NCBI GenBank assembly: GCA_030645735.1
Contig: JAUSNP010000005.1
Location: 8,151 to 72,150, forward strand
DNA length: 64,000 nt
Source of the DNA: Candidatus Moraniibacteriota bacterium
GTDB taxonomy: Bacteria > Patescibacteriota > Minisyncoccia > Moranbacterales > UBA2206
Reading direction: 5' to 3'
Made by a program: the position numbers and the translations under genes. Positions 40,523 through 52,840 of this stretch are shown piece after piece; the stretch's first letter is position 1, and every line of letters starts with the position of its first letter. The notes under the pieces were generated by a model. That model had not been told where the DNA came from. It saw only the letters and a list, made by a program, of their open reading frames with translations, and ran no database searches.

Positions 40523-40672
40523 CCAAGAAACAAAAACACAAACACAAACACCTGCCTGCCGGCAGGCAGGAATAACAAATTCAAATATCCAAAATACAAA
40601 CTTTTGATTTTTGAATTTTGAGCATTGGATATTGTTTGGCTATTGTATCTTGCGATTTGGTATTTTAAATCC

Positions 40673-41545
40673 ATGATCGTCAGCGTCAAAGAAATTTTAG
40701 AAAAAGCCAAGGCTGGTGGCTATGCCGTGGGAGCTTTCAATACCACCAATTTGGAAACTACTCGCGCTATCGTAGAAGCTGCCAAGGAAACTAAGTCACC
40801 AGTCATCATTCAGGTGACGGAAAAGACTATGGAATATGCTGGTGGACGCATGATTTTCAACATTATCAAAAATGATGTGGAATTTTATGCGCCAGAAATT
40901 CCAGTGGGGATTCATCTGGATCATGGTTCAAGTTTTGAAATTGTGGAGCGAGCAGTGGAAATTGGTTGGTCATCGGTGATGTATGATGGTTCACGCAAAG
41001 AATATGCGGATAATGTTTCAATGACGAAAAAAGTGGTGGATTTTTGCCACAAAAAAGGCGGTGATAATATAACTGTGCAAGGCGAATTGGGTAGTGTGCC
41101 ATATCTAAGCGAGCACAAAATGGGGGCGGTGGACTGGGATGCATATATGACTGATCCAGAACAAGCTAGGGATTTTGTAGAAAAAACTGGCATTGATACA
41201 TTGGCGGTAGCGATTGGTAATGCCCATGGATTTTTCACCGAGCGGGAAGTTCCAGATTGGGCGAGATTGGAAAAAATTCGCAGCATGATCGAGATTCCAA
41301 TTATTTTGCATGGCGCTTCTGATTGGGAAGATGGCAAGGCGACCAAAGCTATTGAATTGGGCGTGAATTGTTTCAATGTGGACACCAACACTCGTTTGGC
41401 TTTCGTGAACACGCTGAGTACGATTTTCAAGGGTGATAAGGATCCTGGTCTTGATTTGCGCAGTATTCTTGGCGAAGCGCGTGACGCGGTCAAAGAAAGT
41501 GTGAAAAGAAAAATGGAGCTTTTTGGTTGCGTGGGCAAAGCGTAG
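40673..41545 (+). CDS. fba: class II fructose-bisphosphate aldolase
   Basis: AVGAFNTTNLE, IHLDHGSS; start moved to MIVSVKEIL (the ORF-track N-terminus is hydrophobic and non-homologous). Confidence 0.85.
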   Translation: MIVSVKEILEKAKAGGYAVGAFNTTNLETTRAIVEAAKETKSPVIIQVTEKTMEYAGGRMIFNIIKNDVEFYAPEIPVGIHLDHGSSFEIVERAVEIGWSSVMYDGSRKEYADNVSMTKKVVDFCHKKGGDNITVQGELGSVPYLSEHKMGAVDWDAYMTDPEQARDFVEKTGIDTLAVAIGNAHGFFTEREVPDWARLEKIRSMIEIPIILHGASDWEDGKATKAIELGVNCFNVDTNTRLAFVNTLSTIFKGDKDPGLDLRSILGEARDAVKESVKRKMELFGCVGKA

Positions 41546-41651
41546 AACGTAAATTGTGAAACGCATAACGCGCAACAAAATTATTTGCAAGATATAATTT
41601 TTTTAAAAATATTTCGCGTTTCAGGTTTTGCGATACGCGTTATACGATAAA
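41546..41651 (+). repeat. intergenic heptamer-motif region (family member B)
   Basis: agaacgtaaattgtgaaacgcATAACGCgcaac ... tatttcgcg ... ttgcgatacgcgttatacg upstream of the ATG at 41652. Confidence 0.5.
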
Positions 41652-42092
41652 ATGACTGTTGAAAAAATTCTTTTGGAATTTGATGTGGAATTGAAAAATC
41701 TTTTGCCAGCGTTGAAAAAAATCAATGCTAGTTTTGGCTATGTTTCAGAAATGGATGCACAAAAAGTAGCTGACTACTTTTCTATGTCACTCAGCAAGGT
41801 TTATGAAACTGCCAGTTTCTATGATTTGATCAAAACCAAGCCACAGCCACCTTTAGTGATTCAAGTTTGTTCCGGAGCTAATTGCGCGGTGAAAAATGCC
41901 TACAAAGTCATTGTAGAAATTGAAAACCAATTGCACATCAAAGCTGGGGATGATTTCAATCCGAATGTGAAACTGGAAATCATCAGTTGTCTCGGACAAT
42001 GCGGTCGCGGACCAATTATGATCATCAACAAAAAAATCTTCACCCAAGTTACACCCAGCAGCGCGCGGGAAATTTTGCAGAATTATATGTAA
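41652..42092 (+). CDS. NuoE/HoxE/HydC-like thioredoxin-fold [2Fe-2S] subunit
   Basis: CSGANCAVKN...ISCLGQCGRGP (Cx4C...Cx3C); start moved to the ATG at 41652 (the track used TTG at 41628). Confidence 0.75.
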   Translation: MTVEKILLEFDVELKNLLPALKKINASFGYVSEMDAQKVADYFSMSLSKVYETASFYDLIKTKPQPPLVIQVCSGANCAVKNAYKVIVEIENQLHIKAGDDFNPNVKLEIISCLGQCGRGPIMIINKKIFTQVTPSSAREILQNYM

Positions 42093-42433
42093 AATATTTT
42101 GCTGTTCTTATGTAAAAAATCGAGGTCTTACCTCGATTTTTTTGTTGTGCCATAAAAACTTAAAAGCCCTCAATGCAGGAGACAGAGTCTGCTCACAATA
42201 TTTATTTCTGCTACGAAAGAAATATTATGAGCAGACCCTAGGCGTCTGAGTCCCTTGAAAAATTTAACGGAAAAAATAATTTTTTCCCTGAAAAACCAGG
42301 TGGGTCTCAATTTTTCGCCTCTCCATTCTGAAGGCTTTCGGCTATATTATAGTCCTGTTTTCAAATTCTGGCAAGGGTAGATTTTTGTTTGAACAATTTT
42401 TGGCTTAAAATAGGCAATAATCTTGGTAAATAT

Positions 42434-42465
42434 TGACTTTATTTCAATTTTGCTGTATAATGACA
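42434..42465 (+). promoter_or_regulatory. sigma70-like promoter
   Basis: TTGACT, 17 nt, TATAAT, ~45 nt upstream of the SD AAGGAGG and the ATG at 42513. Confidence 0.6.
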
Positions 42466-42512
42466 AATTACGGTAAGTAATTCAGAAACTCAAAACCTCA
42501 AGGAGGATTGTC

Positions 42513-42908
42513 ATGAAGAAATTACTTGTTCTTTTTGCAGTATTTTTGGTGTTGGTGCCGTCTATGTCATTTGCTAGACTTAACGCGAATCAAGGCGGAT
42601 GGCGTGGTGATGGACGGAGACATGAACATCGCGGCGGTGAAAATCGTCGCCAGAATAATAAAAAACATAGCTATGAGCATCATCGTAGCAGTCGCGGTGG
42701 AGGCATAGTCGGCGGGTTCATTCGCGATGTATTAACTGCAACAACAGTAATCGTTGTAGGCGGCGTAGTAATTGGGGTGGCCAGCGCAATAGAACGGTCA
42801 GCACAGAATGGTCAGTGCTACAGAGATGTGACACCTGGATACACTGATGGGTATGGGCGGTTCATATCAACTGGCCCGACTCAAAGAACTCAAGTTTCTT
42901 GTCGGTAG
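42513..42908 (+). CDS. exported His/Arg/Gly-rich protein with a glycine-zipper TM segment
   Basis: 131 aa; signal peptide MKKLLVLFAVFLVLVPSMSFA; His-rich stretch RRHEHRGGENRRQNNKKHSYEHHRSSRGGG; GxxxG-rich helix. Confidence 0.5.
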   Translation: MKKLLVLFAVFLVLVPSMSFARLNANQGGWRGDGRRHEHRGGENRRQNNKKHSYEHHRSSRGGGIVGGFIRDVLTATTVIVVGGVVIGVASAIERSAQNGQCYRDVTPGYTDGYGRFISTGPTQRTQVSCR

Positions 42909-43023
42909 TATCAAATGGGGGGTAGCTTAGAAAAATGGCGGACTTGTGAAACGCAAGGATGCCATTTTTATTTTGAAAAAAATATGCAAAAAGTGATTGT
43001 CGGGATATAATAGAAGTACTTGT

Positions 43024-43141
43024 CCCGCACTAACTTTTCAAGTCGCTTGTGTCACTTTTGAAGTATACGCGGGAGAGTTAATTATTTACGACTTTTAAAT
43101 ATAATTTCACAAGAATTATTATGTTGAAAAGTTAGTGCGGG
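43024..43141. promoter_or_regulatory. 18-bp perfect inverted repeat bracketing the 5' leader and start codon of the NuoF-like gene
   Basis: CCCGCACTAACTTTTCAA (43024-43041) and TTGAAAAGTTAGTGCGGG (43124-43141); the ATG follows at 43142. Confidence 0.6.
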
Positions 43142-44386
43142 ATGAAGAAGGAAACAAAAATAATAACCAAAAATTGGGGTCAGATAGATCCAAATGAGAT
43201 TGATGACTCGATTGAAGTGGGTGGCTATCAAGCGTTGGAAAAATTCATTCACAAAATGACGCCAGTTTTGGCTTTGGAGGAAATCAAGCTTTCTGGCTTG
43301 TGTGGGCGCGGTGGTGCTGGTTTTCCAACGGGAATGAAATTGGAGTCTGTGCAGAAAGAGAAAAGCAAAGAAAAATATTTTATTTGCAATCTGGATGAAT
43401 CAGAGCCAGGGACATACAAAGATCGTTCGATTGTAGACAATGATCCACATATGCTTTTAGAAGGCGTCATTATCGAATCTTTGATTGTGGGTGCACGAAA
43501 AGCGTTCGTCTATGTCAATGGTAACTATCAAAGACAAATTGAAATTTTGCAACGGGCGGTGGAGCAAGCACAAGAAAAAAGGATTCTTGGTGAGAAAATT
43601 TTAGGTTCCAGATATTCATTGGAGGTTGAAATTTTTGCAGGTGCAGGCGCGTATATTTGCGGTGAAGAAACTGCCCTTATTAATTCGATTGAAGGCAATC
43701 GCGGTGAGCCGAAATCACGTCCACCTTTTCCAACGCAAGTCGGACTTTTTGGCAAACCAACGGCCGTGAATAACGCTGAGACCGTGGCCAACATTCCCTG
43801 GATAATTTCCAATGGTGGAAAAAAATATGCAGCCATTGGTTCAAAAAAATCAGCTGGTACCAAACTTTTCATCGTGAATGGATCCGTCAAAAATCCAGAT
43901 GTTTTTGAGGCGCCATTGGGCACAAAACTTTCTGATTTGATTGAAAAGTATGCTGGTGGGATGCAGAAAGGTAAAAATTTTTGGTTTGCGCAGGTGGGCG
44001 GCTCATCTGGGCGTTTGGTTCTGGAAAAAGATTTGGTTAGGAAATTGGAATATGATCGTGAAGCCAAAGTTCCTTTGGGATCTGGCGCAATTTTGGTGGT
44101 GGACAAAACAGTGGATATTCATGAATTGTTGTTGTCGTGGATGAGTTTTTTCCATCGCGAATCCTGTGGCAAATGCGTGCCATGTCGCGAAGGCACATTT
44201 CGCCTCTGGGAAATCGCCAAGCGTCTGCAAGATGGACAAGTTTCTGAGCGGGATGTGGCGGCTATCAAAGACATTCTGTGGACGCTCAGCAACACCACAT
44301 TTTGTCCATTGGGCAAATTTGCAGCCACGGCTTTTGGTGATGCGATAAGCAATTTTCAAAAAGAGATTTATAAGCTATCTAGGTGA
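43142..44386 (+). CDS. NuoF/HoxF/HydB-like NAD(P)H-binding FMN/[4Fe-4S] subunit
   Basis: 414 aa; GRGGAGFPTGMK, YICGEETALINSIEG, CGKCVPCREGT. Confidence 0.85.
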   Translation: MKKETKIITKNWGQIDPNEIDDSIEVGGYQALEKFIHKMTPVLALEEIKLSGLCGRGGAGFPTGMKLESVQKEKSKEKYFICNLDESEPGTYKDRSIVDNDPHMLLEGVIIESLIVGARKAFVYVNGNYQRQIEILQRAVEQAQEKRILGEKILGSRYSLEVEIFAGAGAYICGEETALINSIEGNRGEPKSRPPFPTQVGLFGKPTAVNNAETVANIPWIISNGGKKYAAIGSKKSAGTKLFIVNGSVKNPDVFEAPLGTKLSDLIEKYAGGMQKGKNFWFAQVGGSSGRLVLEKDLVRKLEYDREAKVPLGSGAILVVDKTVDIHELLLSWMSFFHRESCGKCVPCREGTFRLWEIAKRLQDGQVSERDVAAIKDILWTLSNTTFCPLGKFAATAFGDAISNFQKEIYKLSR

Positions 44387-44394
44387 TATAAGTT

Positions 44395-45801
44395 ATGAGG
44401 ATAAAAATCAATACAAAAGAATATGAAGCCAAAGACGGAGAAATGATTCTGGATGTTTGTCGTAGAAATGGAATTCAAGTTCCAACTTTGTGTTCAATTC
44501 CAAAATTTCATGAGGGTGTGTGTCGGATTTGCATGGTGGAAAATGGTGGGCGATTGACGACTTCTTGCAATGTGAAAGCTTCTGAAGGTATGGAGGTTGT
44601 GACAGAAAGTGAAGATGTGTCCAAGGCGCGCCGAATCAATTTGGAATTGTTGTGGGCGGACCACGCCGGCAAATGTTCAACTTGCAAGAAAAATCAGCGT
44701 TGTGAATTGCAAAATCTGGCCATTAGTCAAAAGATTGAAAATTTTCATTTTGTGCCACGCAAAGAAGAAATGACAGATAGTGAGAATCTCGATCTTTTGA
44801 AAGACAATCGTTCTCGGGTGGTGGTGGACGATGGCAACGCGTGTCTAACACGCACTACAGAATTGTGTGTGGAATGTCGTCGTTGCATCAATGTGTGTCC
44901 AACCAAAGAATTGTCATTCAACCATCGCGCGGGAGACACGGTGGTTGGCACAGCCTATGAAAAGTCGCTGGATTGCATCTTCTGTGGTCAGTGTGTGAAG
45001 AATTGTCCGACAGGAGCAATTACGGACAAAAATGATTTGACCAAGATTATGATAGATCTTGCTGACTTGAAAAAAATGGCCATAGCGTTGATTGATCCGG
45101 CAGTTTTGGAAAGCGTGGCCTTTGAACATCCTGAAATTGATTCACGTGGAAAATTGATTAGCGCCCTGAAAGGAATTGGTTTTGAAAAAGTTTTTGACTT
45201 GGGCTTTGGTATGGAATTGGCTTTGGAAAATATGACGCAGGAGATTAAAAAAAGTAGTAAAAACAATCTACTGCTCAACCATTGTCCATCATTCAATTTG
45301 TTTGTAAAAAAATATTATCCGCAGTTTGCCAAGAACATTCTGACTGTGGCACATCCTGATGAGTTGACGGCCGATTTTCTGAAAACTGAATTTGCCAAGA
45401 AGGAAAAAATAAACTCAGAGGATTTAGTAGTGATCTCATTGTCATCTTGTGTGGCAAAGAAAAAAGAGAAGGGGAAGAATTTGGATTATGTCATCACGGT
45501 TAGAGAATTGGGACGCATAATTCGTCAGAAAAATTTGAAATTGAAAGATATCAAAGAAAGTGATTTCAGTTCTGGACTGGCCGTGAAAGATGAAAAAATA
45601 AAGAGCATCACAAGAACTGGTGGGATGGCGGAGATGTTGGCCAAGAAATTGAAAGTCAAATATATAGTGGCTGATGGCGTGTCACAAATAAAAAACATTC
45701 TGCGGGATTTGGAAAAAGGACGAGTGGAAACTAAAATCATTGAAGCGATGGTGTGTGAAGGAGGATGTGTGAATGGTGGCGGACAGGCTAGGAAATTATA
45801 A
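44395..45801 (+). CDS. [FeFe]-hydrogenase HydA-like protein (NuoG-like N-terminus plus H-cluster domain with a variant L1 motif)
   Basis: 468 aa; N-terminal 2Fe-2S, H-x3-C-x2-C-x5-C, two CxxCxxCxxxCP; H-domain aligns to C. pasteurianum CpI (FDLGFG; L1 NHCPSF in place of TSCCPxW; L2 SSCVAKKKE; L3 EAMVCEGGCVNGGGQ). Confidence 0.7.
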   Translation: MRIKINTKEYEAKDGEMILDVCRRNGIQVPTLCSIPKFHEGVCRICMVENGGRLTTSCNVKASEGMEVVTESEDVSKARRINLELLWADHAGKCSTCKKNQRCELQNLAISQKIENFHFVPRKEEMTDSENLDLLKDNRSRVVVDDGNACLTRTTELCVECRRCINVCPTKELSFNHRAGDTVVGTAYEKSLDCIFCGQCVKNCPTGAITDKNDLTKIMIDLADLKKMAIALIDPAVLESVAFEHPEIDSRGKLISALKGIGFEKVFDLGFGMELALENMTQEIKKSSKNNLLLNHCPSFNLFVKKYYPQFAKNILTVAHPDELTADFLKTEFAKKEKINSEDLVVISLSSCVAKKKEKGKNLDYVITVRELGRIIRQKNLKLKDIKESDFSSGLAVKDEKIKSITRTGGMAEMLAKKLKVKYIVADGVSQIKNILRDLEKGRVETKIIEAMVCEGGCVNGGGQARKL

Positions 45802-45811
45802 GAGTACTCCT

Positions 45812-45910
45812 GTCATTCCGGCTTTGAGCCGGAATCTTCTCACTGTAATTGCGAATCTAAATTTATTTCCATGAAACATGGAGGAGATCCCGGGTCAAGC
45901 CCGGGATGAC
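45812..45910. repeat. compound palindromic repeat element (copy 1)
   Basis: GTCATTCCGGCtttgAGCCGGAATC ... GATCCCGGGtcaagCCCGGGATGAC. Confidence 0.7.
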
Positions 45911-45935: not shown

Positions 45936-46139
45936 ATGTGTCTTGCAATCCCTGGAAAAATTCTAAAAATCAAAGGTGAAACAGCCGAAATTGATTTCAA
46001 TGGCATCCGCAAAGAAGTGAATATTGCCATGGTTGATGTTGCAATCGGCGATTTTGTCATGGTGCACGCTGGTTTTGCGATTGAAAAGATGGACATGGAT
46101 TTGGCTTCAGAAATTCAAGGATATTTAGATAAAAAATGA
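45936..46139 (+). CDS. hypC: hydrogenase maturation factor HypC
   Basis: 67 aa; MCLAIPGKILKI. Confidence 0.85.
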   Translation: MCLAIPGKILKIKGETAEIDFNGIRKEVNIAMVDVAIGDFVMVHAGFAIEKMDMDLASEIQGYLDKK

Positions 46140-47176
46140 AATTAGACAAACAAAAACTTTTGCAAAGTATTAAAGATAATGCCAATCAAATTGGTCGGCC
46201 TTTGCGATTGATGGAATTGTGCGGGACGCATTCGCAGTCGATTGCGCAACATGGCATCAAGAGTTTGATGCCCAAAAATGTAAAGTTGGTTTCCGGCCCA
46301 GGCTGTCCGGTGTGTGTGACTGATCAGACGGACATTGATGTGATGGTGGGCTTGGCTTTGGCTGGCATTCCCGTGGCGGTCTATGGTGACACGATGCAGG
46401 TGCCGGGGAATTTGATGAGCTTGGAGGAGGCGAAAAGGCAGGGTGCAGACGTGAGCATTGTCTATGATATCACTGAGGCGGTGGCGATGAGCCAAGAGAA
46501 AAGAGGCTTGGTATTTTTTGGTTTGGGATTTGAGACGACCACTGGCATGACCGCTTGGGCAATTCAGCAAGGTCTAATTGTTTATTGCGCACACAAAATT
46601 TTTCCACCGGCGATGAGCGCGCTTTTGGCTAACAAAAAAATCAAAGTCGGTGGCTTTTTGAATCCCGGTCACGTCAGCTCCATCATTGGTACGAAAGTTT
46701 ATGAACAATTCAAAATTCCACAAGTGGTGGCTGGCTTTGATGGAGAAGGAATACTCTTGGCAATTGAAATGTTGTTGACACAGATTTTGGAAAACAAAAC
46801 AATTGTGCAAAACGCATATACCAGCTTGGTCAAAAAGGACGGCAATCCCAAAGCGCGCAAATTGATTTCTGAAGTTTTCGAAATCTCGGATGCGCGTTGG
46901 CGTGGGTTGGGAGAAATCAAAAAATCAGGCTTGAAAATTCGCAAGAAATATAAAAAGCAAGATGCGGAATTTGTGTATGCCAATCTGATCAAAAAAATCA
47001 GAAAAGAAATCAAACCCAAGTTGAGTGCTTGCAAATGTGGCTTGGTGTTGCAAGGACTCATTGAATCCAAGGAATGTCCATTGTTTGGCAAGGTCTGCAC
47101 GCTAGATAATCCACAAGGTGCTTGCATGGTTTCGGTAGAAGGGAGTTGTAATGTAGAATATAGATATGGAAAATAA
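46136..47176 (+). CDS. hypD: hydrogenase maturation factor HypD
   Basis: 346 aa; CGTHSQSI, GPGCPVCV, C-terminal CxxC-rich region. Confidence 0.85.
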   Translation: MKLDKQKLLQSIKDNANQIGRPLRLMELCGTHSQSIAQHGIKSLMPKNVKLVSGPGCPVCVTDQTDIDVMVGLALAGIPVAVYGDTMQVPGNLMSLEEAKRQGADVSIVYDITEAVAMSQEKRGLVFFGLGFETTTGMTAWAIQQGLIVYCAHKIFPPAMSALLANKKIKVGGFLNPGHVSSIIGTKVYEQFKIPQVVAGFDGEGILLAIEMLLTQILENKTIVQNAYTSLVKKDGNPKARKLISEVFEISDARWRGLGEIKKSGLKIRKKYKKQDAEFVYANLIKKIRKEIKPKLSACKCGLVLQGLIESKECPLFGKVCTLDNPQGACMVSVEGSCNVEYRYGK

Positions 47177-47564
47177 CAAGATTAAAACTATAGTAAGCTG
47201 GCTTCTTGTTTTGGTGTGGGCAATTATTATTTTTGGTCTTTCGGCTATGCCAGGCACTGGAGATCACCCATATAGCTTGTTCTATTTTGTGGAAAGAAAA
47301 ACTTTTCATGTGCTTGAATATTTTGTCTTAAGTATTTTGTTGTGGCGAGCTTGGGCGCAAAATTTTTCCCAGAAAAAATCATTTTGGTTTGCAGGAATAA
47401 CAACCTTGTTATATGCAGCATCAGATGAGTGGCACCAGACTTTTGTTTTCGGCCGAGAAGGTGTGTTGAGAGATGTAGTTATTGATTCAATTGGAATATT
47501 TCTAGCTGTAATTTTTATTTTGAAATTTAAACAATGGAAAGAGAAAAGAAAACAATTGAATTAG
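47166..47564 (+). CDS. VanZ-family membrane protein
   Basis: 132 aa; overlaps the hypD 3' end and the hypE 5' end. Confidence 0.6.
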   Translation: MENNKIKTIVSWLLVLVWAIIIFGLSAMPGTGDHPYSLFYFVERKTFHVLEYFVLSILLWRAWAQNFSQKKSFWFAGITTLLYAASDEWHQTFVFGREGVLRDVVIDSIGIFLAVIFILKFKQWKEKRKQLN

Positions 47565-48562
47565 AATCGGGCGCGGGTGGAGAAAAATCTAATAGTTTGA
47601 TTTCACAAATCCGAAAAAATTTTGCGGTGAGTCGCAAGTGGAAAAATATGCAGGATGATGGTGCGGTTTTTGACCTAGGTATGAACAATGTAGAGACGCC
47701 CCGGCAGGGCGTCTCTACTGCGTCGAATAAATTAGTCTTTACCACCGACGCATTTATTGTGGATCCAATTTTTTTTCCAGGTGGCGACATTGGCAAGATT
47801 GCGATGTGTGGGACAATCAATGATTTGTCAGTGATGGGTGCCAAGCCGATTGGCATTGGTTTGAGTTTGGTGATTGAAGAGGGTTTTCCCGAAGAAGATT
47901 TGCAAAAAATTGTGGCATCAATTGGAAAAGTTTCAGCTGAGTCGGGTGTACCGATTGTGACAGGTGACACCAAAGTCACTGAGCGTGGCAAAATCGACAA
48001 AATTGAAATCACCACCTCTGGTGTTGGATTGGCGAAAAAAATAATTGGAAATAGCGGGGCAAAAGTGGGGGATGTGGTCATTGCTTCTGGCAATTTGGGT
48101 GAACATGCGGTGGCATTGTTGGCCAAGCGTTTCAACTATCAAACGAAAATAAAAAGTGATTGTCAGACACTGACTCGCGAAATTCAAAGCGTTGCTAAAT
48201 ATCTGACTGCTTGCAAGGATCCAACTCGCGGTGGCATGGCAGCGGTACTCAATGAAATTGCGGAAAAATCCAAAGTCAAAATCGTGCTGGCTGAAAACAC
48301 CTTGCCATTTTCCAAAGAAACCGTGGCACTCTCTGAGCTTCTAGGAATTGATAAATTCTCTTTTCCATCGGAAGGGCGCTTTGTGGCCACAGTTCAGCCA
48401 AAGCAAGCCAAAAAAGCCTTGCAGATTTTGCAAAAATTCAATGCTCAGGCCAAAATTATTGGCTCAGTTGAGCCAGGAAAAGGCGTATTCTTGAATACCA
48501 GCCTAGGTGGCACCAAAAAAATCGATGTGCCACGCGGAAAACTAATTCCGAGGATTTGCTAG
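47534..48562 (+). CDS. hypE: hydrogenase maturation factor HypE
   Basis: 342 aa; FTTDAFIVDPIFFPGGDIGKIAMCGTINDL; C-terminal PRIC. Confidence 0.85.
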   Translation: MEREKKTIELESGAGGEKSNSLISQIRKNFAVSRKWKNMQDDGAVFDLGMNNVETPRQGVSTASNKLVFTTDAFIVDPIFFPGGDIGKIAMCGTINDLSVMGAKPIGIGLSLVIEEGFPEEDLQKIVASIGKVSAESGVPIVTGDTKVTERGKIDKIEITTSGVGLAKKIIGNSGAKVGDVVIASGNLGEHAVALLAKRFNYQTKIKSDCQTLTREIQSVAKYLTACKDPTRGGMAAVLNEIAEKSKVKIVLAENTLPFSKETVALSELLGIDKFSFPSEGRFVATVQPKQAKKALQILQKFNAQAKIIGSVEPGKGVFLNTSLGGTKKIDVPRGKLIPRIC

Positions 48563-49753
48563 ATAAAAGATTATTTGTCCAAAAGAAAGTCCTGCATCGC
48601 CACGCGGGATCTTTTTATTTACATAAGCACCTTTCGAGATTAGATATTCAGAGATTATTTTGTTGTTGGCAATGCCACCAGCCAGAAAGATCGGAAGCTG
48701 TAGGGGTTTCACCCCTACAGCTAGGCCTTCCGCGATATAGAGTTGCGCAGTGGCGGCTAGGCGTTTTTTGTCTTTGTGTAAATTTTTTATCAAGTACTCG
48801 AAAAGACAAGTCGTATTTAGGATGACCGATGACCGATGACTGATGACTCTTTCTGGCATCTCAATCTTTGGTTTTATATCCAAATACGGTTTAGTTGAAT
48901 TAGCTTCCAGTTTCAGGATTGGTTCGTGTTTGTGCTTTCTTTCGTTTTTACAAAAACCCAACAAAATAGAGACGGCATCCAAAACTCGGCCACAGCTTGA
49001 AGTTTCGATGCAATTGAAATTTTGTTGCAGCTGATTATATAAAACCTCAAATTCTTGCACTGAATAATATTTTTTTACAAAAGAATAAATAAAATCTTTT
49101 TGAGATTTGAGATTTGAGATTTGAGATTTTCTTGTATCTTGTATTTTGTATCTTGTGATTTTGTCCAGTATGCTAATCAACATTCGCGCTGGTTCCTGAA
49201 TAGCCAATTCTCCACCAATCATCACTTGATTTTCAAGACTCCCAATCCTTTCAATTTTTATTTTTTGTTTTGAAATTTTGTCATTGGAAATTGGAAATTG
49301 TAAATTGGAAATTGCGAAGCATTCACCTCCCCAAATTTTGCCATCGGTGCCATAGCCCGTACCATCCAAAGCGATGCCACAGAATTTAGGTGGTAGTTTG
49401 TAGTTGGTAGTTTGTAGAGCTTTTTCGCCAACTGCAGAAAAGATGTGGGCGATATGGTGTTGGATTTGAATATGTTTGGCCTTATACTTTTTGGCCAAAT
49501 CTTTGCCTAGTATAGTAGTCTTATATAGCGGATGTAAATCAGTCAGAATAATATCCGGTTTGATTTTATTTTTTCTTAAGAATTTGTTCAATTCGTGTTG
49601 GTATTCGTTAAAATTCGTGTCTTTCAAGAGGTCTCCAAAATCTTCAGAAAAGTAAATTTTATTATAGCTAAAAACCGAAAAATTGCCATTGGATTCTGGT
49701 CCAAGAGCTAAGATTTGCTGTTTGTTTTTTTGTGGATAATTGAATACTCGCAT
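48542..49753 (-). CDS. hypF: HypF C-terminal (Kae1/YgjD-like) domain only
   Basis: 403 aa aligning to E. coli HypF residues ~375-750 (ILALGPESNGNF, HHIAHIFSAVGE, FLAGGIANN); no acylphosphatase, Zn-finger or YrdC domains at this locus. Confidence 0.7.
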   Translation of the reverse strand: MRVFNYPQKNKQQILALGPESNGNFSVFSYNKIYFSEDFGDLLKDTNFNEYQHELNKFLRKNKIKPDIILTDLHPLYKTTILGKDLAKKYKAKHIQIQHHIAHIFSAVGEKALQTTNYKLPPKFCGIALDGTGYGTDGKIWGGECFAISNLQFPISNDKISKQKIKIERIGSLENQVMIGGELAIQEPARMLISILDKITRYKIQDTRKSQISNLKSQKDFIYSFVKKYYSVQEFEVLYNQLQQNFNCIETSSCGRVLDAVSILLGFCKNERKHKHEPILKLEANSTKPYLDIKPKIEMPERVISHRSSVILNTTCLFEYLIKNLHKDKKRLAATAQLYIAEGLAVGVKPLQLPIFLAGGIANNKIISEYLISKGAYVNKKIPRGDAGLSFGQIIFYLANPRN

Positions 49754-49772: not shown

Positions 49773-49843
49773 TGTCATTCCCGTGAAAACGGGAATCTAG
49801 TATCGAGGCTTTGTGACTAGATTCCGGCTCAAGGCCGGAATGA
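49773..49843. repeat. compound palindromic repeat element (copy 2)
   Basis: GTCATTCCCGtgaaaACGGGAATC ... GATTCCGGCtcaagGCCGGAATGAC. Confidence 0.7.
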
Positions 49844-49938
49844 CAATGCGTATTTAGTATATCAAGTTATGTGGCTTTGTTGAATTGGCAAAAATCTGGT
49901 AAAATATGAGTATAAGGAAAATAAAAATTACTGAAAAT

Positions 49939-50697
49939 ATGTCAAAACCAAAAGTAGCGATTGTGAGTTTGACTTCCTGTGAGGGTTGTCAGTTTGCTTT
50001 GTTGGATCTGGGAGAAAAATTCTTGGATTTTGTAGGCAAAATTGAAATGATTGATTTTCGTTTGATCGAGGATGAAGAAGATGATGGCGGAGAGCTTGAC
50101 CTAGTTCTCGTAGAGGGCAATCCAGTGACTGAGGAAAATGTGAAAACATTGGAATCATTGCGAAAGCGTGCCAAAATTTTGGTGGCCTTGGGTAATTGTG
50201 CGGCGATGGGTGGAATTCCAGAAATCAAGAATTATCACGAGGGCGTGAATACCATCAAGCATGTGTATAAATATATTCAAGGTATTAGCAATCCAGAAAT
50301 TAAGGAGATTGATAATTTTGTGAAAGTTGATTTTGTGTTTCCTGGGTGCCCAATCAATGGTGAGGAATTTTTGAAATATATCCCTGAGCTTTTGGAAGGC
50401 AAGATTCCGGTTATTCCAGATCAACCAGTGTGTGTGGAATGCAAAGCAGCTGGTAATCGATGTTTGCTTTTGGATAAGAAGCCATGCTTTGGACCAATGA
50501 TCCAAGGTGGTTGCAATGCCGTGTGTCCAACTTCCAGAATGACTTGCCAGGGTTGTCGGGGTTTGCGCCCAACTGGCAATGTGAAGGCTATGCGTGCAGC
50601 TTTGAAAAATATGATCACAGACCATCAGTTTGAAAATATAACCGAAATCTTCGGACTCAGAGATGATATTGAGGCCAAGGAAAAATTATCAAAATAA
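49939..50697 (+). CDS. [NiFe]-hydrogenase small subunit, group-3 type
   Basis: MSKPKVAIVSLTSCEGCQFALLD; distal Cys-rich region CVECKAAGNRC...CFGP...GCNAVCP. Confidence 0.8.
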   Translation: MSKPKVAIVSLTSCEGCQFALLDLGEKFLDFVGKIEMIDFRLIEDEEDDGGELDLVLVEGNPVTEENVKTLESLRKRAKILVALGNCAAMGGIPEIKNYHEGVNTIKHVYKYIQGISNPEIKEIDNFVKVDFVFPGCPINGEEFLKYIPELLEGKIPVIPDQPVCVECKAAGNRCLLLDKKPCFGPMIQGGCNAVCPTSRMTCQGCRGLRPTGNVKAMRAALKNMITDHQFENITEIFGLRDDIEAKEKLSK

Positions 50698-50703
50698 AAT
50701 ATT

Positions 50704-51963
50704 ATGCAAATAAAAATCAATCATATCGCAAAAATGGAAGGACACGCGGGCTTTATGGCCAGTGTTCTCAATGGCGATGTTAAAAGTGCCAAGCTCGAAG
50801 TGCAAGAGGGAATTCGCCTAATTGAAGGAGTTTTGATTGGTCGGCACTATGCTGATATGCCGACAATTGCTCAGCGCATCTGTGGAATTTGTCCAGTGGT
50901 GCACAATTTGACAGCTATCAAGGCTTTGGAGAGTGCTATGGGTGTTTCCGTGTCGCCTGAGGCTGAAAAATTGCGCGTGGTGATGGAATTGGGTCAAATC
51001 ATACATTCGCACTCCCTGCATCTATTCTTCTTGTCTCTAGCTGATTTCTTGGATATGGATAACGATATTCAACTCATCAGCACCTATCCAGAAGAGGCCA
51101 AAATTGCCATGCGCTTGCGAGATTATGGGATGGATATTGTGCGAGTGATTGGCGGGCGTGTAGTGCATCCTTTGACCAACGAAGTGGGCGGTTTCAAAAA
51201 GGCACCAGACGCAGATGCTCTACGAAAAATCGTGACTGACAGTAGTCAGGCGCTGAAAGATGCAGTGGCGTTAGGAGAATTTTTCAAGAAAATAAAAATC
51301 CCAGATTTTCAACGCGAGACCGAATATATATGTCTAGGAAAAAATGGGGAGTATGCAATTTATGACGGTGATGTAATCTCTTCACAGGGTTTGCACATTC
51401 CAGTGGAAAAATTTGAAAGCAATTTTCAAGAATTGCAAAAACAAACTGAATTGATCAAAAAAGTTGTGCATGAAGGCAAGAGCTATATGATTGGCGCGAT
51501 TGCTAGAATCAACAATAGTCGTGATAAGCTTAGTCCACAGGCTAGCAGTTATCTTGATAGTTTGAATTTCACTTTTCCAGATTACAATCCATTTCATAAC
51601 ATTTTGTGTCAGATGGTGGAGGTTATTCATTGTATTGAACAATCAAGTAAATTGATCAAGGAATTATTGCATTCTGATTTGAACAATGTGGTGACTGGAA
51701 AATATGAAATCAAAGAAGGGGTTGGGGTGGCCGCAGTGGAAGCTCCGCGCGGAACGCTCTATTATCATGTAGAAGTTGATCACAACGGCTATCTGAAAAA
51801 TGTAAATATCATCACGCCAACTGCACAATTCTTGTCGAATTTGGAAGATGATGTGGCAGACTATATCAAAGAAATTATTGACCTGAAAGACGCTGATAAA
51901 CAAAAAAAACTCCGCGGTTTCATTCGTGCCTATGATCCTTGCATTTCTTGCGCAGTACACTAA
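50704..51963 (+). CDS. [NiFe]-hydrogenase large subunit, group-3 type, without a C-terminal extension
   Basis: 419 aa; N-terminal RICGICPVVH; C-terminal DPCISCAVH immediately followed by the stop. Confidence 0.85.
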   Translation: MQIKINHIAKMEGHAGFMASVLNGDVKSAKLEVQEGIRLIEGVLIGRHYADMPTIAQRICGICPVVHNLTAIKALESAMGVSVSPEAEKLRVVMELGQIIHSHSLHLFFLSLADFLDMDNDIQLISTYPEEAKIAMRLRDYGMDIVRVIGGRVVHPLTNEVGGFKKAPDADALRKIVTDSSQALKDAVALGEFFKKIKIPDFQRETEYICLGKNGEYAIYDGDVISSQGLHIPVEKFESNFQELQKQTELIKKVVHEGKSYMIGAIARINNSRDKLSPQASSYLDSLNFTFPDYNPFHNILCQMVEVIHCIEQSSKLIKELLHSDLNNVVTGKYEIKEGVGVAAVEAPRGTLYYHVEVDHNGYLKNVNIITPTAQFLSNLEDDVADYIKEIIDLKDADKQKKLRGFIRAYDPCISCAVH

Positions 51964-52546: not shown

Positions 52547-52819
52547 ATGCATGATTTTCTACTAGCCAAAGAAATTGTTGATGAAGTTCTAGCGATTGCT
52601 GCAGAAAAAAAACTGACAGCGATCAAAAGTGTTGATGTTGAAATTGGCACAATCGCTTTGGCGCATGATGGTTTTGATGAGCACACCGAAGATATTGATG
52701 TGGAAAATCTTCAATTTGGACTAGAAAACATTGCTAAAAACACAATATTGAAAAATACCGAGTTTAAGTTTAAAAAAGTATCAGGGGATAATTGGAAAAT
52801 CACCAACATCGAAATCTAA
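52547..52819 (+). CDS. HypA-like hydrogenase nickel-insertion protein lacking the zinc-finger cysteines
   Basis: 90 aa; MHDFLLAKEIVDEVL...VDVEIGTIA matches the HypA N-terminus (MHE motif); no Cys anywhere in the protein. Confidence 0.45.
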   Translation: MHDFLLAKEIVDEVLAIAAEKKLTAIKSVDVEIGTIALAHDGFDEHTEDIDVENLQFGLENIAKNTILKNTEFKFKKVSGDNWKITNIEI

Positions 52820-52840
52820 TAATTTTTTAATTTTTATATT

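What the first reader, a model, noticed from the sequence alone, without database searches (positions are those of the whole stretch)
44395..45801. HydA homolog keeps all four H-cluster cysteine ligands but replaces the proton-relay cysteine (TSCCP to NHCP) and ends right after motif L3
Alignment to C. pasteurianum CpI shows L1 as LLNHCPSFN (CpI FTSCCPGW), L2 as SSCVAKKKE (MPCxxKxxE) and L3 as EAMVCEGGCVNGGGQ (ExMACxGGCxxGGGQ). The [4Fe-4S]H and bridging cysteines are present. The first Cys of L1, essential for proton transfer in catalytic enzymes, is His. The protein stops 4 residues after GGGQ, whereas CpI continues ~60 aa. Parts of the H-domain are shortened: 468 aa in total versus 574 in CpI. 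This fits a sensory or non-catalytic [FeFe]-like protein, or a HoxU-like electron-transfer subunit retaining a [4Fe-4S]-only H-domain.
Basis: partly seen in the sequence, partly recalled or inferred. Interest (0 to 1): 0.7.

Follow-up and report, generated by a model that had tools for sequence, protein, structure and literature searches.

The report
Fossil FeFe domain in NiFe hydrogenase
A gene in a Candidatus Moranbacteria genome that looks like an iron-only hydrogenase is most likely a retired one: it keeps the fold and one iron-sulfur cluster site, but appears to serve as the electron-wiring subunit of a neighbouring nickel-iron hydrogenase that disposes of NADH from glycolysis as hydrogen gas.

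Summary
ORF 44395-45801 (468 aa) is an intact HydA homolog. It keeps all four cubane cysteines (C297, C352, C454, C458), has His296 at the proton-relay position, and stops 4 residues after GGGQ.

It belongs to a family found only in candidate phyla radiation (CPR) bacteria, with at least 72 clusters. In this family the relay residue is never Cys (H/F/Y/N/S), and E279, S319 and M353 are also replaced. The ~60-aa tail is always missing. The H-domain evolves 1.5-3 times faster than the N-terminal FeS domain but remains under purifying selection.

The gene always sits in the order nuoE-nuoF-hydA'-hypC. In 11 distinct loci it is followed by a group-3b-like [NiFe] small and large subunit, between glycolysis genes. 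A relative with a canonical 585-aa HydA occupies the same syntenic site without hyp or NiFe genes. One family member has lost all four cysteines yet keeps the NiFe genes.

Best reading: a HoxU-like, NiFe-HydA-like wiring and scaffold subunit of a non-bifurcating NADH-linked [NiFe] hydrogenase, descended from a true [FeFe] hydrogenase, with a fossil H-domain that probably binds only a [4Fe-4S] cluster. A residual 2Fe site is unlikely but not excluded. I class it as a new variant of a known kind.

The parts
41628..42092 (+). nuoE/hydC/hoxE-like thioredoxin-like [2Fe-2S] subunit
   Evidence: Pfam 2Fe-2S_thioredx 9.4e-33. NCBIfam NuoE/HoxE hits fall below cut-off. Found upstream of hydA' in the related loci that hold enough upstream sequence; not detected in L017.
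43142..44386 (+). nuoF/hydB/hoxF-like FMN/NADH subunit. Core only; it lacks the extra ferredoxin-type domains of bifurcating HydB.
   Evidence: Pfam Complex1_51K, SLBB, NADH_4Fe-4S. Its 414 aa align only to residues ~113-521 of 599-aa A. woodii HydB and 114-519 of A. mobile HydB. It is 58-59% identical to the NuoF next to canonical CPR HydA.
44395..45801 (+). hydA' : M3-type HydA homolog (2Fe-2S, His-ligated 4Fe-4S, 2x 4Fe-4S, relic H-domain), 468 aa
   Evidence: NCBIfam NF040763 scores 316 bits against a cut-off of 765.
45268..45294 (+). L1 motif LLLNHCPSF. His296 (45280-45282) sits at the proton-relay position; Cys297 is a cubane ligand.
45442..45468 (+). L2 motif SSCVAKKKE (Cys352; Ser350 replaces M353; Lys355/356 kept)
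45742..45786 (+). L3 motif EAMVCEGGCVNGGGQ (Cys454, Cys458), followed by ARKL and the stop at 45799-45801
45936..46139 (+). hypC ([NiFe] maturation chaperone)
   Evidence: ORF starts MCLAIPG.... HupF_HypC lies directly downstream of hydA' in every related locus that holds enough downstream sequence.
46136..47176 (+). hypD
   Evidence: Pfam HypD 8.4e-120
47534..48562 (+). hypE
   Evidence: Pfam AIRS + AIRS_C. 69-80% identical in related loci.
48542..49753 (-). hypF fragment: Kae1-like C-terminal domains only, 403 aa
   Evidence: Pfam HypF_C and HypF_C_2
49906..50697 (+). hyhS: group-3b-like [NiFe] small subunit with 12 Cys, enough for three [4Fe-4S] clusters
   Evidence: Pfam Oxidored_q6. Nearest NCBIfam models are the sulfhydrogenase delta subunits. 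Cys positions.
50704..51963 (+). hyhL: group-3b-like [NiFe] large subunit with intact RICGIC and C-terminal DPCISCAVH motifs
   Evidence: Best PDB matches are Pyrococcus/Thermococcus sulfhydrogenase I alpha at 8e-68, full length. Motifs.
52547..52819 (+). hypA-like small ORF (90 aa, no Cys)
   Evidence: 58-64% identical to the HypA-like ORFs of L001 and L003

Best explanation
HydA' is the electron-wiring and scaffold subunit of a soluble, non-bifurcating, NAD(H)-linked [NiFe] hydrogenase. The complex would be NuoE-like + NuoF-like + HydA' + HyhS + HyhL.

**Origin.** HydA' descends from the catalytic subunit of a canonical NADH-dependent [FeFe] hydrogenase (the NuoE-NuoF-HydA type still found at the same syntenic site in related CPR bacteria). 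Its H-cluster was functionally replaced by an acquired group-3b-like [NiFe] module with hyp maturation genes.

**State of the H-domain.** It survives as a fossil. It keeps the fold and, in this genome, the four cysteines that bind the [4Fe-4S] cubane. It has lost the relay cysteine, the rest of the proton pathway, Met353 and the C-terminal cap. It most probably holds no [2Fe] subcluster. The cubane would be a side-branch cluster, like A5 of Acetomicrobium NiFe-HydA. The domain itself would act mainly as structure, possibly as the docking surface for HyhSL.

**Proposed electron path.** NADH from glycolysis -> FMN and [4Fe-4S] in the NuoF-like subunit -> HydA' N-terminal clusters -> three clusters of HyhS -> the NiFe site -> H2, and possibly the reverse.

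**Shown:** sequence features, family-wide substitutions, conserved gene order, relaxed but purifying selection, and derived phylogenetic position.

**Inferred:** complex formation, cofactor content, electron path and direction.
For: 1. **Intact N-terminal cluster ligands.** All are invariant or at least 90% conserved across 83 sequences: C33/C43/C46/C58; H90/C94/C97/C103; C158/C161/C164/C168; C194/C197/C200/C204.
2. **Catalytic residues lost family-wide (72 sequences).**
   - Relay position: H35, F18, Y12, N6, S1; never Cys.
   - E279 becomes M/L/I; S319 becomes L/S/A; M353 becomes S in 70/72; E361 is not conserved.
   - The tail is 0-14 aa, against 60-64 aa in canonical HydAs.
3. **Fails curated hydrogenase models.** NF040763 scores 316 against a cut-off of 765, and TIGR02512 scores 190 against 406. 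A canonical CPR HydA passes at 766.6.
4. **Conserved context.** nuoE-nuoF-hydA'-hypC comes first, then hyhS-hyhL, in the window and 10 further distinct loci down to 48% identity. The cluster lies between TIM/FBP-aldolase and GAPDH. None of the canonical CPR loci (L008-L010), nor any of the other HydA loci from other lineages fetched by the scan, has a NiFe-subunit hit, and none has a hyp hit apart from one weak HypE-like hit (27%) in L043.
5. **Syntenic replacement.** L008 has the same GT2-GalT-TIM-FBA-...-NuoE-NuoF neighbourhood but a canonical 585-aa HydA (TSCCPSW, tail) and no hyp or NiFe genes.
6. **Degeneration series inside the family.**
   - P0070 and others stop right after the second L3 Cys.
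   - P0080 and P0083 lose an L3 Cys.
   - P0097 (L095) has lost all four Cys yet keeps hypC-hyhS-hyhL-hypA.
   - 342-345-aa forms have lost most of the H-domain and are nested within the family.
7. **Relaxed constraint.**
   - Canonical CPR HydAs are 78% identical in the N-terminal domain and 76% in the H-domain. The family is 67% and 44%.
   - Family against canonical is 55% and 32%, whereas in canonical enzymes the H-domain is the better conserved part (46% against 35%).
   - dN/dS is 0.04-0.07 in the N-terminal domain and 0.10-0.20 in the H-domain.
8. **Phylogeny.** An N-terminal-domain neighbour-joining tree puts the family sister to canonical CPR HydA on a shared stem.
9. **HyhL is catalytically intact** and HydA' is the only poly-FeS protein near it. 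No HyhB/HyhG-like ORF exists in the 64 kb.
10. **NuoF-like subunit lacks the extra FeS domains of bifurcating HydB**. Such enzymes are NADH-dependent and ferredoxin-independent (PMC7311640; PMC11406978).
11. **Precedent.** A. mobile NiFe-HydABCSL has a HydA without the H-cluster motif and a plain FeS cluster at that position, at a dead end of the electron path (PMC8880783).
Against: - No biochemical or structural data exist. Complex formation rests on gene order.
- In this window hyhSL lies 4.1 kb downstream of hydA'. The hyp genes and one opposite-strand gene lie between, so there are at least two transcription units.
- Several residues that contact the 2Fe subcluster in CpI stay conserved. 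K358/K359 equivalents are 71/72, P231 is 65/72, P324 is 69/72, M497 is 54/72 and GGGQ is about 65/72.
- Pocket positions have acquired new conserved residues (Asp234 72/72, Ser350 70/72, Asp/Glu322 70/72). That speaks for a maintained function rather than plain decay.
- The group D enzyme TamHydS binds a functional H-cluster with a very similar substitution pattern: C299A, M353S, M497L, E279F, S319L, with E282 kept (PMC11803613).
- Archaeal group F hybrids are active although most of their genomes lack HydEFG (PMC11216029).
- HydE/F/G presence in this genome could not be tested beyond the 64-kb window.
- The short-form loci keep nuoE-nuoF-hydA''-hypCDEF without adjacent hyhSL. The NuoEF-HydA module may therefore also work without this NiFe dimer.
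Confidence: 0.75

Rival explanations
1. True bacterial hybrid hydrogenase. The H-domain still binds a [2Fe] subcluster (or another metal site bridged through Cys458). It would then be a second catalytic site, or a slow H2-sensing or regulatory site, beside the NiFe site. The parallels are archaeal group F/G hybrids and group C/D sensory enzymes.
For: - All four cubane and bridging cysteines are kept in 70/72 members, with the K358/K359, P231, P324, M497 and GGGQ equivalents largely conserved.
- The substitution pattern resembles TamHydS, which binds an H-cluster.
- His could in principle relay protons.
- The H-domain is under purifying selection.
- Archaeal hybrids show that FeFe and NiFe modules can coexist and be active without recognisable maturases.
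Against: - The relay position varies among H, F, Y, N and S, and Phe and Asn cannot relay protons.
- Every member lacks the C-terminal ~60 aa.
- A498 becomes Ile or Val.
- Members that lost one or all cysteines, or the whole domain, keep the same operon context.
- The H-domain evolves much faster than the N-terminal domain, the opposite of canonical enzymes.
- No HydE/F/G is present among the window ORFs checked or in any related locus.
- There is no PAS or regulator context.
Confidence: 0.08
2. On-path relay. After loss of the 2Fe subcluster and the C-terminal cap, the exposed H-domain cubane became the entry point where the distal cluster of HyhS docks. Electrons would flow NiFe -> HyhS -> H-domain cubane -> FS4A -> FS4B -> 2Fe-2S -> NuoF.
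For: - The four Cys are strictly conserved in most members, and the domain surface is under purifying selection with new conserved residues.
- Loss of the cap would expose the cubane. This is an inference from CpI structure knowledge.
- The four loci whose HydA lacks the H-domain also lack adjacent hyhSL.
Against: - L095 keeps hyhS-hyhL although its HydA' has no cubane cysteines.
- In HoxFUYH and A. mobile NiFe-HydABCSL the small subunit connects through the N-terminal A3/U3 cluster, and the H-cluster position is a dead end (PMC8880783).
- The four short-form loci are closely related and count as about one evolutionary event.
Confidence: 0.12
3. Two separate enzymes that are merely neighbours. 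NuoE-NuoF-HydA' would be an NADH-linked oxidoreductase with another partner, such as ferredoxin at the exposed cubane. HyhSL would work with other subunits encoded elsewhere.
For: - Short-form loci retain nuoE-nuoF-hydA''-hypCDEF without adjacent hyhSL.
- L019 and L017 lack hyhSL within 10 kb.
- Moranbacteria 3b hydrogenases have been described with Pyrococcus-like gene arrangements (PMC10811913).
Against: - Adjacency is conserved in 11 distinct loci down to 48% identity. In compact loci all genes are co-directional: nuoE-nuoF-hydA'-hypC-x-hyhS-hyhL.
- hypC always directly follows hydA'.
- No other FeS or diaphorase partner for HyhSL is present in the 64-kb window.
Confidence: 0.07
4. Frameshifted or truncated pseudogene, or an assembly artefact.
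For: The protein is 100-120 aa shorter than canonical HydA.
Against: - The same end point occurs in 72 independent sequences.
- No tail remnant exists downstream in any frame.
- dN/dS is 0.1-0.2.
- An identical protein is on record from a 142-kb contig.
Confidence: 0.01

Closest known systems
HydA subunit of the electron-bifurcating NiFe-HydABCSL of Acetomicrobium mobile (PDB 7T2R/7T30; PMC8880783)
   Same: A HydABC-type chassis (NuoE-, NuoF- and HydA-like subunits) carries a [NiFe] small and large subunit as its catalytic module. HydA has no H-cluster but keeps an FeS cluster at that position. The N-terminal domains match (query 5-212, 1.9e-21).
   Different: - The A. mobile HydA C-terminal domain is not recognisable as an H-domain. 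A profile of the CPR H-domain finds no 7t2r chain even at E<=10, and the paper reports no H-cluster motif. Here the H-domain and all four Cys persist.
- A. mobile HydB has the extra FeS domains and bifurcates. The CPR NuoF-like subunit is core-only.
- HyhL here is closer to group 3b (8e-68) than to A. mobile HydL (3.8e-49).
- HyhS here has Cys for three clusters rather than one.
[quoted passage not shown]
   Same: Same three-gene module nuoE-nuoF-hydA with a short NuoF-like subunit. It is the closest sequence relative (55% identity in the N-terminal domain) and the sister clade. It occupies the same syntenic site in L008.
   Different: The canonical form has TSCCPSW, MPCTSKK.E, the 60-aa Fe_hyd_SSU tail and no hyp or NiFe genes. 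HydA' fails the model cut-off (316 against 765) and has the NiFe module.
Archaeal hybrid hydrogenases, [FeFe] groups F/G with [NiFe] groups 3f/3g (Greening et al. 2024, PMC11216029)
   Same: An H-domain protein is encoded together with NuoE/NuoF-like subunits and a group 3 [NiFe] hydrogenase.
   Different: - In group F the H-domain is fused to the NiFe small subunit, and a separate NuoG-like HydD carries the clusters. The paper reports the cysteines that ligate the H-cluster as conserved, and the protein evolves H2 after loading with [2Fe]adt.
- Here the H-domain is fused to its ancestral M3-type N-terminus, HyhS is a separate gene, and the relay Cys and the tail are missing.
- The lineage is bacterial (CPR) and derives from group A.
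HoxU of bidirectional HoxEFUYH (group 3d) [NiFe] hydrogenases (PDB 5XF9)
   Same: Same predicted role and the same N-terminal cluster set. HoxE-, HoxF- and HoxU-like genes lie next to NiFe small and large subunits. The NCBIfam HoxU model aligns to residues 3-215.
   Different: HoxU (about 240 aa) has no H-domain. The score is 112 against a cut-off of 333. The NiFe dimer is 3b-like rather than 3d (5xf9_D only 3e-36).
Putative sensory [FeFe] hydrogenases, groups C/D (TmHydS, TamHydS; PMC11803613)
   Same: Relay Cys replaced, M353 to Ser, E279 and S319 to hydrophobic residues, E282 kept.
   Different: Sensory enzymes have an extra C-terminal [4Fe-4S] domain, further associated with a PAS domain according to an abstract listed, and they bind an H-cluster. 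HydA' ends after L3, has an M3-type N-terminus and sits in a NiFe operon.
Nar1/NARFL (eukaryotic hydrogenase-like Fe-S assembly proteins). This comparison rests on my own knowledge and was not tested here.
   Same: An H-domain fold that binds a [4Fe-4S] cluster but no 2Fe subcluster. It shows that such a relic can be stable and useful.
   Different: Unrelated function (cytosolic Fe-S protein assembly), different N-terminus, no hydrogenase partners.

Membership tests
Catalytic group A [FeFe] hydrogenase (HydA) | H-domain fold (Pfam Fe_hyd_lg_C) | tested here: met
   162.5 bits against a cut-off of 22.1. The AF2 model matches 8a6t_A and CpI with probability 1.00.
Catalytic group A [FeFe] hydrogenase (HydA) | Four cysteines ligating [4Fe-4S]H, including the bridging Cys (CpI C300, C355, C499, C503) | tested here: met
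   C297, C352, C454, C458
Catalytic group A [FeFe] hydrogenase (HydA) | L1 TSCCP with the proton-relay Cys (C299), and the pathway residues E279, S319, E282 | tested here: not met
   His296, Met280 and Leu316; only Glu283 (E282) is kept. The relay position is never Cys in 72 relatives.
Catalytic group A [FeFe] hydrogenase (HydA) | Second-sphere Met353 and Met497 | tested here: inconclusive
   M353 is Ser350 (70/72 in the family). M497 is kept as Met452 (54/72).
Catalytic group A [FeFe] hydrogenase (HydA) | C-terminal ~60 aa (Fe_hyd_SSU-like cap) | tested here: not met
   The protein stops 4 aa after GGGQ. There is no Fe_hyd_SSU hit and no remnant downstream.
Catalytic group A [FeFe] hydrogenase (HydA) | Curated family score (NCBIfam NF040763, TIGR02512) | tested here: not met
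   316 against 765, and 190 against 406. A canonical CPR HydA passes at 766.6.
Catalytic group A [FeFe] hydrogenase (HydA) | HydE/HydF/HydG maturases in the genome; CO/CN-ligated 2Fe subcluster | not testable with these tools
   None found among the window ORFs checked or in the ±10 kb flanks of the 27 CPR and DPANN hydA loci scanned. Canonical CPR loci also lack them nearby, so the local test is uninformative.
HoxU / NiFe-HydA-type wiring subunit of diaphorase-linked [NiFe] hydrogenases | N-terminal 2Fe-2S, His-ligated 4Fe-4S and two 4Fe-4S sites intact | tested here: met
   All ligands are invariant or at least 90% conserved. Pfam domains.
HoxU / NiFe-HydA-type wiring subunit of diaphorase-linked [NiFe] hydrogenases | Encoded with NuoE- and NuoF-like subunits and with [NiFe] small and large subunits plus hyp genes | tested here: met
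   Present in the window and conserved in 10 further distinct loci.
HoxU / NiFe-HydA-type wiring subunit of diaphorase-linked [NiFe] hydrogenases | Physical complex and NAD(H)-dependent H2 turnover | not testable with these tools
   Needs purification or multimer modelling.
Electron-bifurcating Bfu/HydABC(SL) enzymes | HydB/BfuB with the additional N-terminal [2Fe-2S] and C-terminal 2x[4Fe-4S] domains | tested here: not met
   The 414-aa subunit aligns to the NuoF core only. Criteria from PMC7311640 and PMC11406978.
Group 3d (Hox) [NiFe] hydrogenase | Large subunit of the HoxH type | tested here: not met
   Nearest are the group 3b sulfhydrogenase alpha chains (8e-68). 5xf9_D scores 3e-36. NCBIfam sulfhyd_HydA scores 254 bits, below its cut-off.
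Canonical group 3b [NiFe] hydrogenase (HyhBGSL / sulfhydrogenase) | Partner subunits HyhB (FeS) and HyhG (FAD/NAD(P)H) | tested here: not met
   No such ORF lies next to hyhSL, and the 64 kb hold no other Cys-rich ORF with ferredoxin-type 4Fe-4S motifs.
Archaeal hybrid group F [FeFe] hydrogenase | H-domain fused to an N-terminal HyhS domain; H-cluster cysteines conserved | tested here: not met
   The N-terminus is the M3-type F-domain and hyhS is a separate gene. The relay Cys is absent. Definition from PMC11216029.
Sensory group C/D [FeFe] hydrogenase | C-terminal [4Fe-4S]/PAS extension and a regulatory gene context | tested here: not met
   The protein ends after L3 and has no PAS hit. Its neighbours are nuoF and hypC.

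The most novel reading that the evidence does not exclude
The relic H-domain is not empty. The cubane, bridged through Cys458, still carries a second metal site, in a pocket remodelled around His296, Asp234, Asp322/Glu323 and Lys355. That site would be either a 2Fe subcluster made without HydEFG or something else. The enzyme would then be a bacterial FeFe/NiFe hybrid with two H2-reactive or regulatory sites, a CPR counterpart of the archaeal group F/G hybrids.
Probability: 0.08. Interest if true: 0.9.

Novelty: new variant of a known kind. Interest (0 to 1): 0.6.

Why it matters
1. **Annotation.** These proteins are labelled 'Hydrogenase, Fe-only' or '[Fe-Fe] hydrogenase large subunit C-terminal domain-containing protein'. 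They are likely to be counted as [FeFe] hydrogenases in metabolic reconstructions of CPR bacteria. The H2 chemistry is more probably done by the NiFe dimer.

2. **Physiology.** A published account of Moranbacteria group 3b hydrogenases describes them as Pyrococcus-like, with a possible sulfhydrogenase role (PMC10811913). In this lineage the partners are instead NuoE, NuoF and HydA', embedded between TIM/FBP-aldolase and GAPDH. That points to direct recycling of glycolytic NADH to H2.

3. **Evolution.** Related genomes carry, at one syntenic site, each of these states:
   - a canonical FeFe enzyme
   - an FeFe chassis with a fossil H-domain plus a NiFe module
   - a form without cubane ligands
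   - a form without most of the H-domain

   This is a natural series in which one catalytic metal centre was swapped for another on the same electron-transfer chassis. It bears directly on the 'intertwined history' of the two hydrogenase classes raised by the archaeal hybrids. It also offers natural minimal H-domain scaffolds for engineering.

Tried and rejected
- **Pseudogene or frameshift.** Rejected: no tail remnant, same end point family-wide, dN/dS 0.1-0.2.
- **Sensory hydrogenase.** No PAS, C-terminal cluster or regulator context.
- **Bifurcating enzyme.** The NuoF-like subunit lacks the extra domains.
- **Member of archaeal group F.** The architecture differs.
- **Same as A. mobile NiFe-HydA.** The N-terminus matches, but its C-terminal domain is not detected by the H-domain profile.
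- **Radical SAM gene near canonical CPR hydA as a HydE candidate.** It is RlmN.
- **Local search for HydE/G/F near CPR hydA loci.** Nothing was found near either canonical or relic forms, so the test does not discriminate.
- **Model coordinates.** I looked for a model file to inspect whether the 2Fe pocket is filled. Coordinates are not exposed.
- **Literature.** Searches for a prior description of this CPR arrangement found none in the open-access library. Subscription literature was not covered.
- **Trees.** These are neighbour-joining without bootstrap. The full-length tree is distorted by the fast H-domain, so I relied on the N-terminal-domain tree and on synteny.
- **Not run.** I did not use the protein-representatives search because it carries no names or context.


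Full report
**1. Observation**

The ORF at 44395..45801 (+) is real and intact. It encodes 468 aa and starts 8 nt after the stop of a nuoF-like gene. Pfam finds the full M3-type HydA architecture:
- Fer2_4, residues 2-72
- NADH-G_4Fe-4S_3, residues 79-115
- two ferredoxin-type 4Fe-4S motifs, residues 153-214
- Fe_hyd_lg_C, residues 229-462, 1.8e-47

The closest solved proteins are the HydA subunits of multimeric HydABC hydrogenases (8a6t_A 1.4e-68, 7q4v_A, 7p5h_A). CpI scores about 1e-46.

The phmmer alignments and two multiple alignments that include canonical CPR HydAs place L-N-H296-C297-P opposite T-S-C-C-P without a gap. The proton-relay Cys (CpI C299) is therefore His, and the cubane ligand is kept. 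L2 is SSC352VAKKKE. L3 is EAMVC454EGGC458VNGGGQ, followed by ARKL and the stop. These four are the only cysteines in the H-domain.

| CpI residue | Here |
|---|---|
| E279 | Met280 |
| S319 | Leu316 |
| M353 | Ser350 |
| Q325 | Asp322 |
| A230 | Asp234 |
| E282 | Glu283 (kept) |
| M497 | Met452 (kept) |
| K358/K359 | Lys355/356 (kept) |

The AlphaFold2 model has mean pLDDT 86.5, and most 10-residue blocks of the H-domain average above 90. It matches HydA and CpI structures with probability 1.00 (TM about 0.64). The region downstream of the stop holds no remnant of the usual ~60-aa C-terminal segment in any frame.

**2. It is a family, not a one-off**

The protein is identical to a database entry from a 142,606-bp Candidatus Moranbacteria contig. 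The homology search returned three groups, all from CPR bacteria (Moranbacteria, Parcubacteria, Paceibacterota):
- proteins of 450-506 aa
- a group of 342-345 aa
- canonical 583-597-aa HydAs

In 72 aligned members of the ~470-aa family:
- The relay position is H (35), F (18), Y (12), N (6) or S (1), and never Cys.
- E279 is M, L or I.
- M353 is Ser in 70/72.
- E361 is not conserved.
- All four cubane cysteines are present in 70/72.
- Every member ends 0-14 residues after GGGQ, against 60-64 in the canonical proteins.

Some members go further:
- P0070, P0031, P0065 and P0066 stop directly after the second L3 cysteine.
- P0080 and P0083 lack one L3 cysteine.
- P0097 has lost all four.
- The 342-345-aa proteins have lost most of the H-domain.

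A scan of one genome per species (GTDB) found the relic form only in CPR MAGs. All other hits (Bacteroidales, Clostridia, Synergistales, DPANN, other CPR) are full-length HydAs with the tail.

**3. Surroundings**

The window encodes, in order:

| Coordinates | Strand | Gene |
|---|---|---|
| 39755-40522 | + | TIM |
| 40625-41545 | + | FBP aldolase |
| 41628-42092 | + | nuoE-like |
| 42513-42908 | + | unknown ORF |
| 43142-44386 | + | nuoF-like |
| 44395-45801 | + | hydA' |
| 45936-46139 | + | hypC |
| 46136-47176 | + | hypD |
| 47166-47564 | + | vanZ-like |
| 47534-48562 | + | hypE |
| 48542-49753 | - | hypF fragment |
| 49906-50697 | + | [NiFe] small subunit |
| 50704-51963 | + | [NiFe] large subunit |
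| 52054-52431 | + | desulfoferrodoxin |
| 52547-52819 | + | hypA-like ORF |
| 52841-53845 | + | GAPDH |

Points about the partner subunits:
- The large subunit carries intact RICGIC and DPCISCAVH motifs.
- It is closest to the group 3b sulfhydrogenase alpha chains (8e-68, full length). The A. mobile HydL scores 3.8e-49 and a group 3d HoxH scores 3e-36.
- The small subunit has 12 cysteines, enough for three clusters.
- The nuoF-like protein aligns only to the NuoF core of bifurcating HydB proteins and lacks their extra FeS domains.
- No HyhB/HyhG-like gene and no other Cys-rich ORF with ferredoxin-type 4Fe-4S motifs occurs anywhere in the 64 kb.
- No HydE/F/G was found among the ORFs checked.

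**4. The context is conserved and tells a history**

*Gene order.* In related loci down to 48% identity the order is nuoE-nuoF-hydA'-hypC, then (hypD/E/F or a 212-243-aa unknown gene), then hyhS-hyhL-(sor)-hypA-GAPDH.
- hyhS and hyhL lie within 10 kb in the window and in 10 further distinct loci: L001, L003, L005, L011, L014, L018, L021, L022, L026 and L095.
- L012 is cut inside hyhS.
- L019 and L017 lack them within 10 kb.
- hypC directly follows hydA' in every locus that holds enough downstream sequence.

*Controls.* None of the canonical CPR loci (L008-L010), nor any of the other HydA loci from other lineages fetched by the scan, has a NiFe-subunit hit, and none has a hyp hit apart from one weak HypE-like hit (27%) in L043.

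*Syntenic replacement.* Locus L008 has the same neighbourhood (GT2, GalT, TIM, FBP aldolase..., NuoE, NuoF). It carries a canonical 585-aa HydA (TSCCPSW, tail) that passes NCBIfam NF040763 'NADH-dependent [FeFe] hydrogenase, group A6', and it has no hyp or NiFe genes.

*Phylogeny.* In a tree built from the N-terminal FeS domain, the relic family forms one clade, with the Cys-less and short forms nested inside it. That clade is sister to the canonical CPR HydAs on a shared stem. N-terminal identity is 55% between the two, against 34-35% to other HydAs. NuoF shows the same affinity: 58-59% against 37-41%. All outgroups are canonical. The relic form therefore derives from a true NADH-dependent [FeFe] hydrogenase.

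**5. Selection**

| Comparison | N-terminal domain | H-domain |
|---|---|---|
| Canonical CPR HydAs, identity among themselves | 78% | 76% |
| Canonical CPR HydAs against other lineages | 35% | 46% |
| Relic family, identity among themselves | 67% | 44% |
| Relic family against canonical CPR HydAs | 55% | 32% |
| dN/dS, four least saturated pairs | 0.04-0.07 | 0.10-0.20 |

In canonical enzymes the H-domain is as conserved as the N-terminal domain, or more so. In the relic family the pattern is reversed. The ancestral catalytic constraint is gone, but the domain is still maintained. It has also acquired its own conserved residues: Asp234 in 72/72, Ser350 in 70/72 and Asp/Glu322 in 70/72.

**6. 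Most likely function**

The simplest model that fits all of this has HydA' playing the HoxU / NiFe-HydA role. It would be the FeS wire and scaffold between an NADH-oxidising NuoEF module and a [NiFe] dimer.

The chassis is the short-HydB type. In S. wolfei and S. aciditrophicus that type is NADH-dependent and ferredoxin-independent (PMC7311640; PMC11406978). The position of the cluster between TIM/FBP-aldolase and GAPDH suggests re-oxidation of glycolytic NADH with H2 as the product. Reversibility is possible.

The H-domain cubane would correspond to cluster A5 of the A. mobile enzyme, which sits at the H-cluster position at a dead end of the chain (PMC8880783). L095 keeps hyhS and hyhL although its HydA' has no cubane ligands. 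This argues that the cubane is neither the catalytic site nor an obligatory relay. Retention of the fold there, and its purifying selection, suggest a structural or docking role.

All steps beyond sequence and gene order are inference: complex formation, cofactor load and the direction of electron flow.

**7. What keeps the alternative alive**

Loss of the relay Cys does not by itself exclude an H-cluster. TamHydS (group D) binds one with C299A, M353S, M497L, E279F and S319L, with E282 retained (PMC11803613). That pattern is close to the one seen here.

The K358/K359, P231, P324, M497 and GGGQ equivalents remain largely conserved. Archaeal FeFe/NiFe hybrids are active after artificial maturation, although most of their genomes lack HydEFG (PMC11216029).

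Against a 2Fe site stand these points:
- the variable relay residue, including Phe and Asn
- the missing cap
- the bulkier residue at A498 (Ile or Val)
- the degeneration series
- the reversed conservation pattern

I put the probability of a second metal site at about 0.08.

**8. Comparison with known systems**

- *Closest functional analogues:* HoxEFUYH and A. mobile NiFe-HydABCSL.
- *Closest relatives by descent:* the canonical CPR NADH-dependent HydABC enzymes.
- *Difference from A. mobile:* the A. mobile HydA C-terminal domain is not detectable with the H-domain profile, its HydB has the bifurcation domains, and its NiFe dimer is of a different lineage.
- *Difference from archaeal group F/G hybrids:* in group F the H-domain is fused to HyhS and the H-cluster cysteines are reported as conserved.
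- *Difference from the published view of Moranbacteria 3b hydrogenases:* that account describes them as Pyrococcus-like (PMC10811913).

I found no description of this arrangement in the searchable literature. That library covers only open-access papers.

**9. Verdict**

The sensory option is not.
- This is a new variant of a known kind: a diaphorase-linked [NiFe] hydrogenase built on a retired [FeFe] hydrogenase subunit.
- Its main value is the natural syntenic series, which documents replacement of one catalytic centre by another, and the correction it implies for hydrogenase annotation in CPR genomes.

Noticed in passing
window 45812-45836 (+) and 49820-49844 (-): A ~40-nt hairpin-containing repeat (TGTCATTCCGGC[T/C]TTGAGCCGGAATCT) occurs twice in inverted orientation. 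One copy lies just after hydA' and the other between hypF' and hyhS, so the pair brackets the hypC-hypD-vanZ-hypE-hypF' block. It is absent from all 97 related loci. A second, unique palindrome (ATCCCGGG...CCCGGGAT) lies at 45887-45907.
   Followed up: partly
window 48542-49753 (-): The HypF homolog has only 403 aa and consists of the Kae1-like C-terminal domains (HypF_C, HypF_C_2). It lacks the acylphosphatase, zinc-finger and YrdC-like parts. Relatives have the same short form (387-437 aa) on the opposite strand.
   Followed up: no
window 52547-52819 (+): A HypA-like 90-aa ORF (starts MHDF...) has no cysteines and so no zinc site. It is conserved after hyhL or the desulfoferrodoxin gene in related loci.
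   Followed up: partly
window 42093-43141 (ORF 42513-42908 +): A 1-kb gap separates nuoE and nuoF. It holds a 131-aa ORF with a signal-peptide-like N-terminus and a Gly/Arg/His-rich body, with no Pfam hit. Relatives either have an unrelated 181-aa ORF on the other strand at this place or no gap.
   Followed up: no
L007, L091, L093, L097 (short-form loci): Genomes whose HydA homolog has lost most of the H-domain (342-345 aa) keep nuoE-nuoF-hydA''-hypC-hypD-hypE-hypF'. No NiFe small or large subunit lies within 10 kb. An AAA ATPase and a phosphoglucomutase occupy that place instead.
   Followed up: partly
L003 11633-12334, L005 11618-12337, L095 12614-13345, L096 8464-9102: In compact relatives an unannotated 212-243-aa gene sits between hypC and hyhS. 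Pfam calls the L095 copy DUF6390. The L003, L005 and L096 copies are weakly alike (22-28% identity), while the L095 copy matched none of them in BLASTP. No homolog is present in the window.
   Followed up: partly
L028, L033, L042, L043, L045, L052, L057, L060 (SSDCPAW); L046, L049, L051, L054, L059, L065, L086, L090 and others (ISACPAW-type): Full-length HydA homologs of Bacteroidales and Rikenellaceae have NuoE/NuoF neighbours and the normal C-terminal tail. At the relay position they carry Asp or Ala instead of Cys, and some have L2 TPCTAM.
   Followed up: no
P0008, P0022, P0002 (family members): These carry in-frame insertions of 6-30 aa in the H-domain. P0008 and P0022 have them in the L2 loop (for example ...PVKSSSPSEISKGGEAYFTGQAGSPMAKF...), and P0002 has a small one nearer the start of the domain. 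They look like small GC-rich element insertions tolerated by the relic domain.
   Followed up: no
window 39755-41545 and 52054-53845: The hydrogenase cluster is embedded between TIM and FBP aldolase upstream and desulfoferrodoxin and GAPDH downstream. This arrangement is conserved across the family.
   Followed up: partly
window 4262-5086, 8504-9355, 12216-16212, 19990-21006: Two Bro-N domain proteins, a DNA methylase plus a ResIII/SWI2-SNF2 helicase pair (restriction-modification-like), and a RhuM/Fic protein lie upstream among the translation genes.
   Followed up: no
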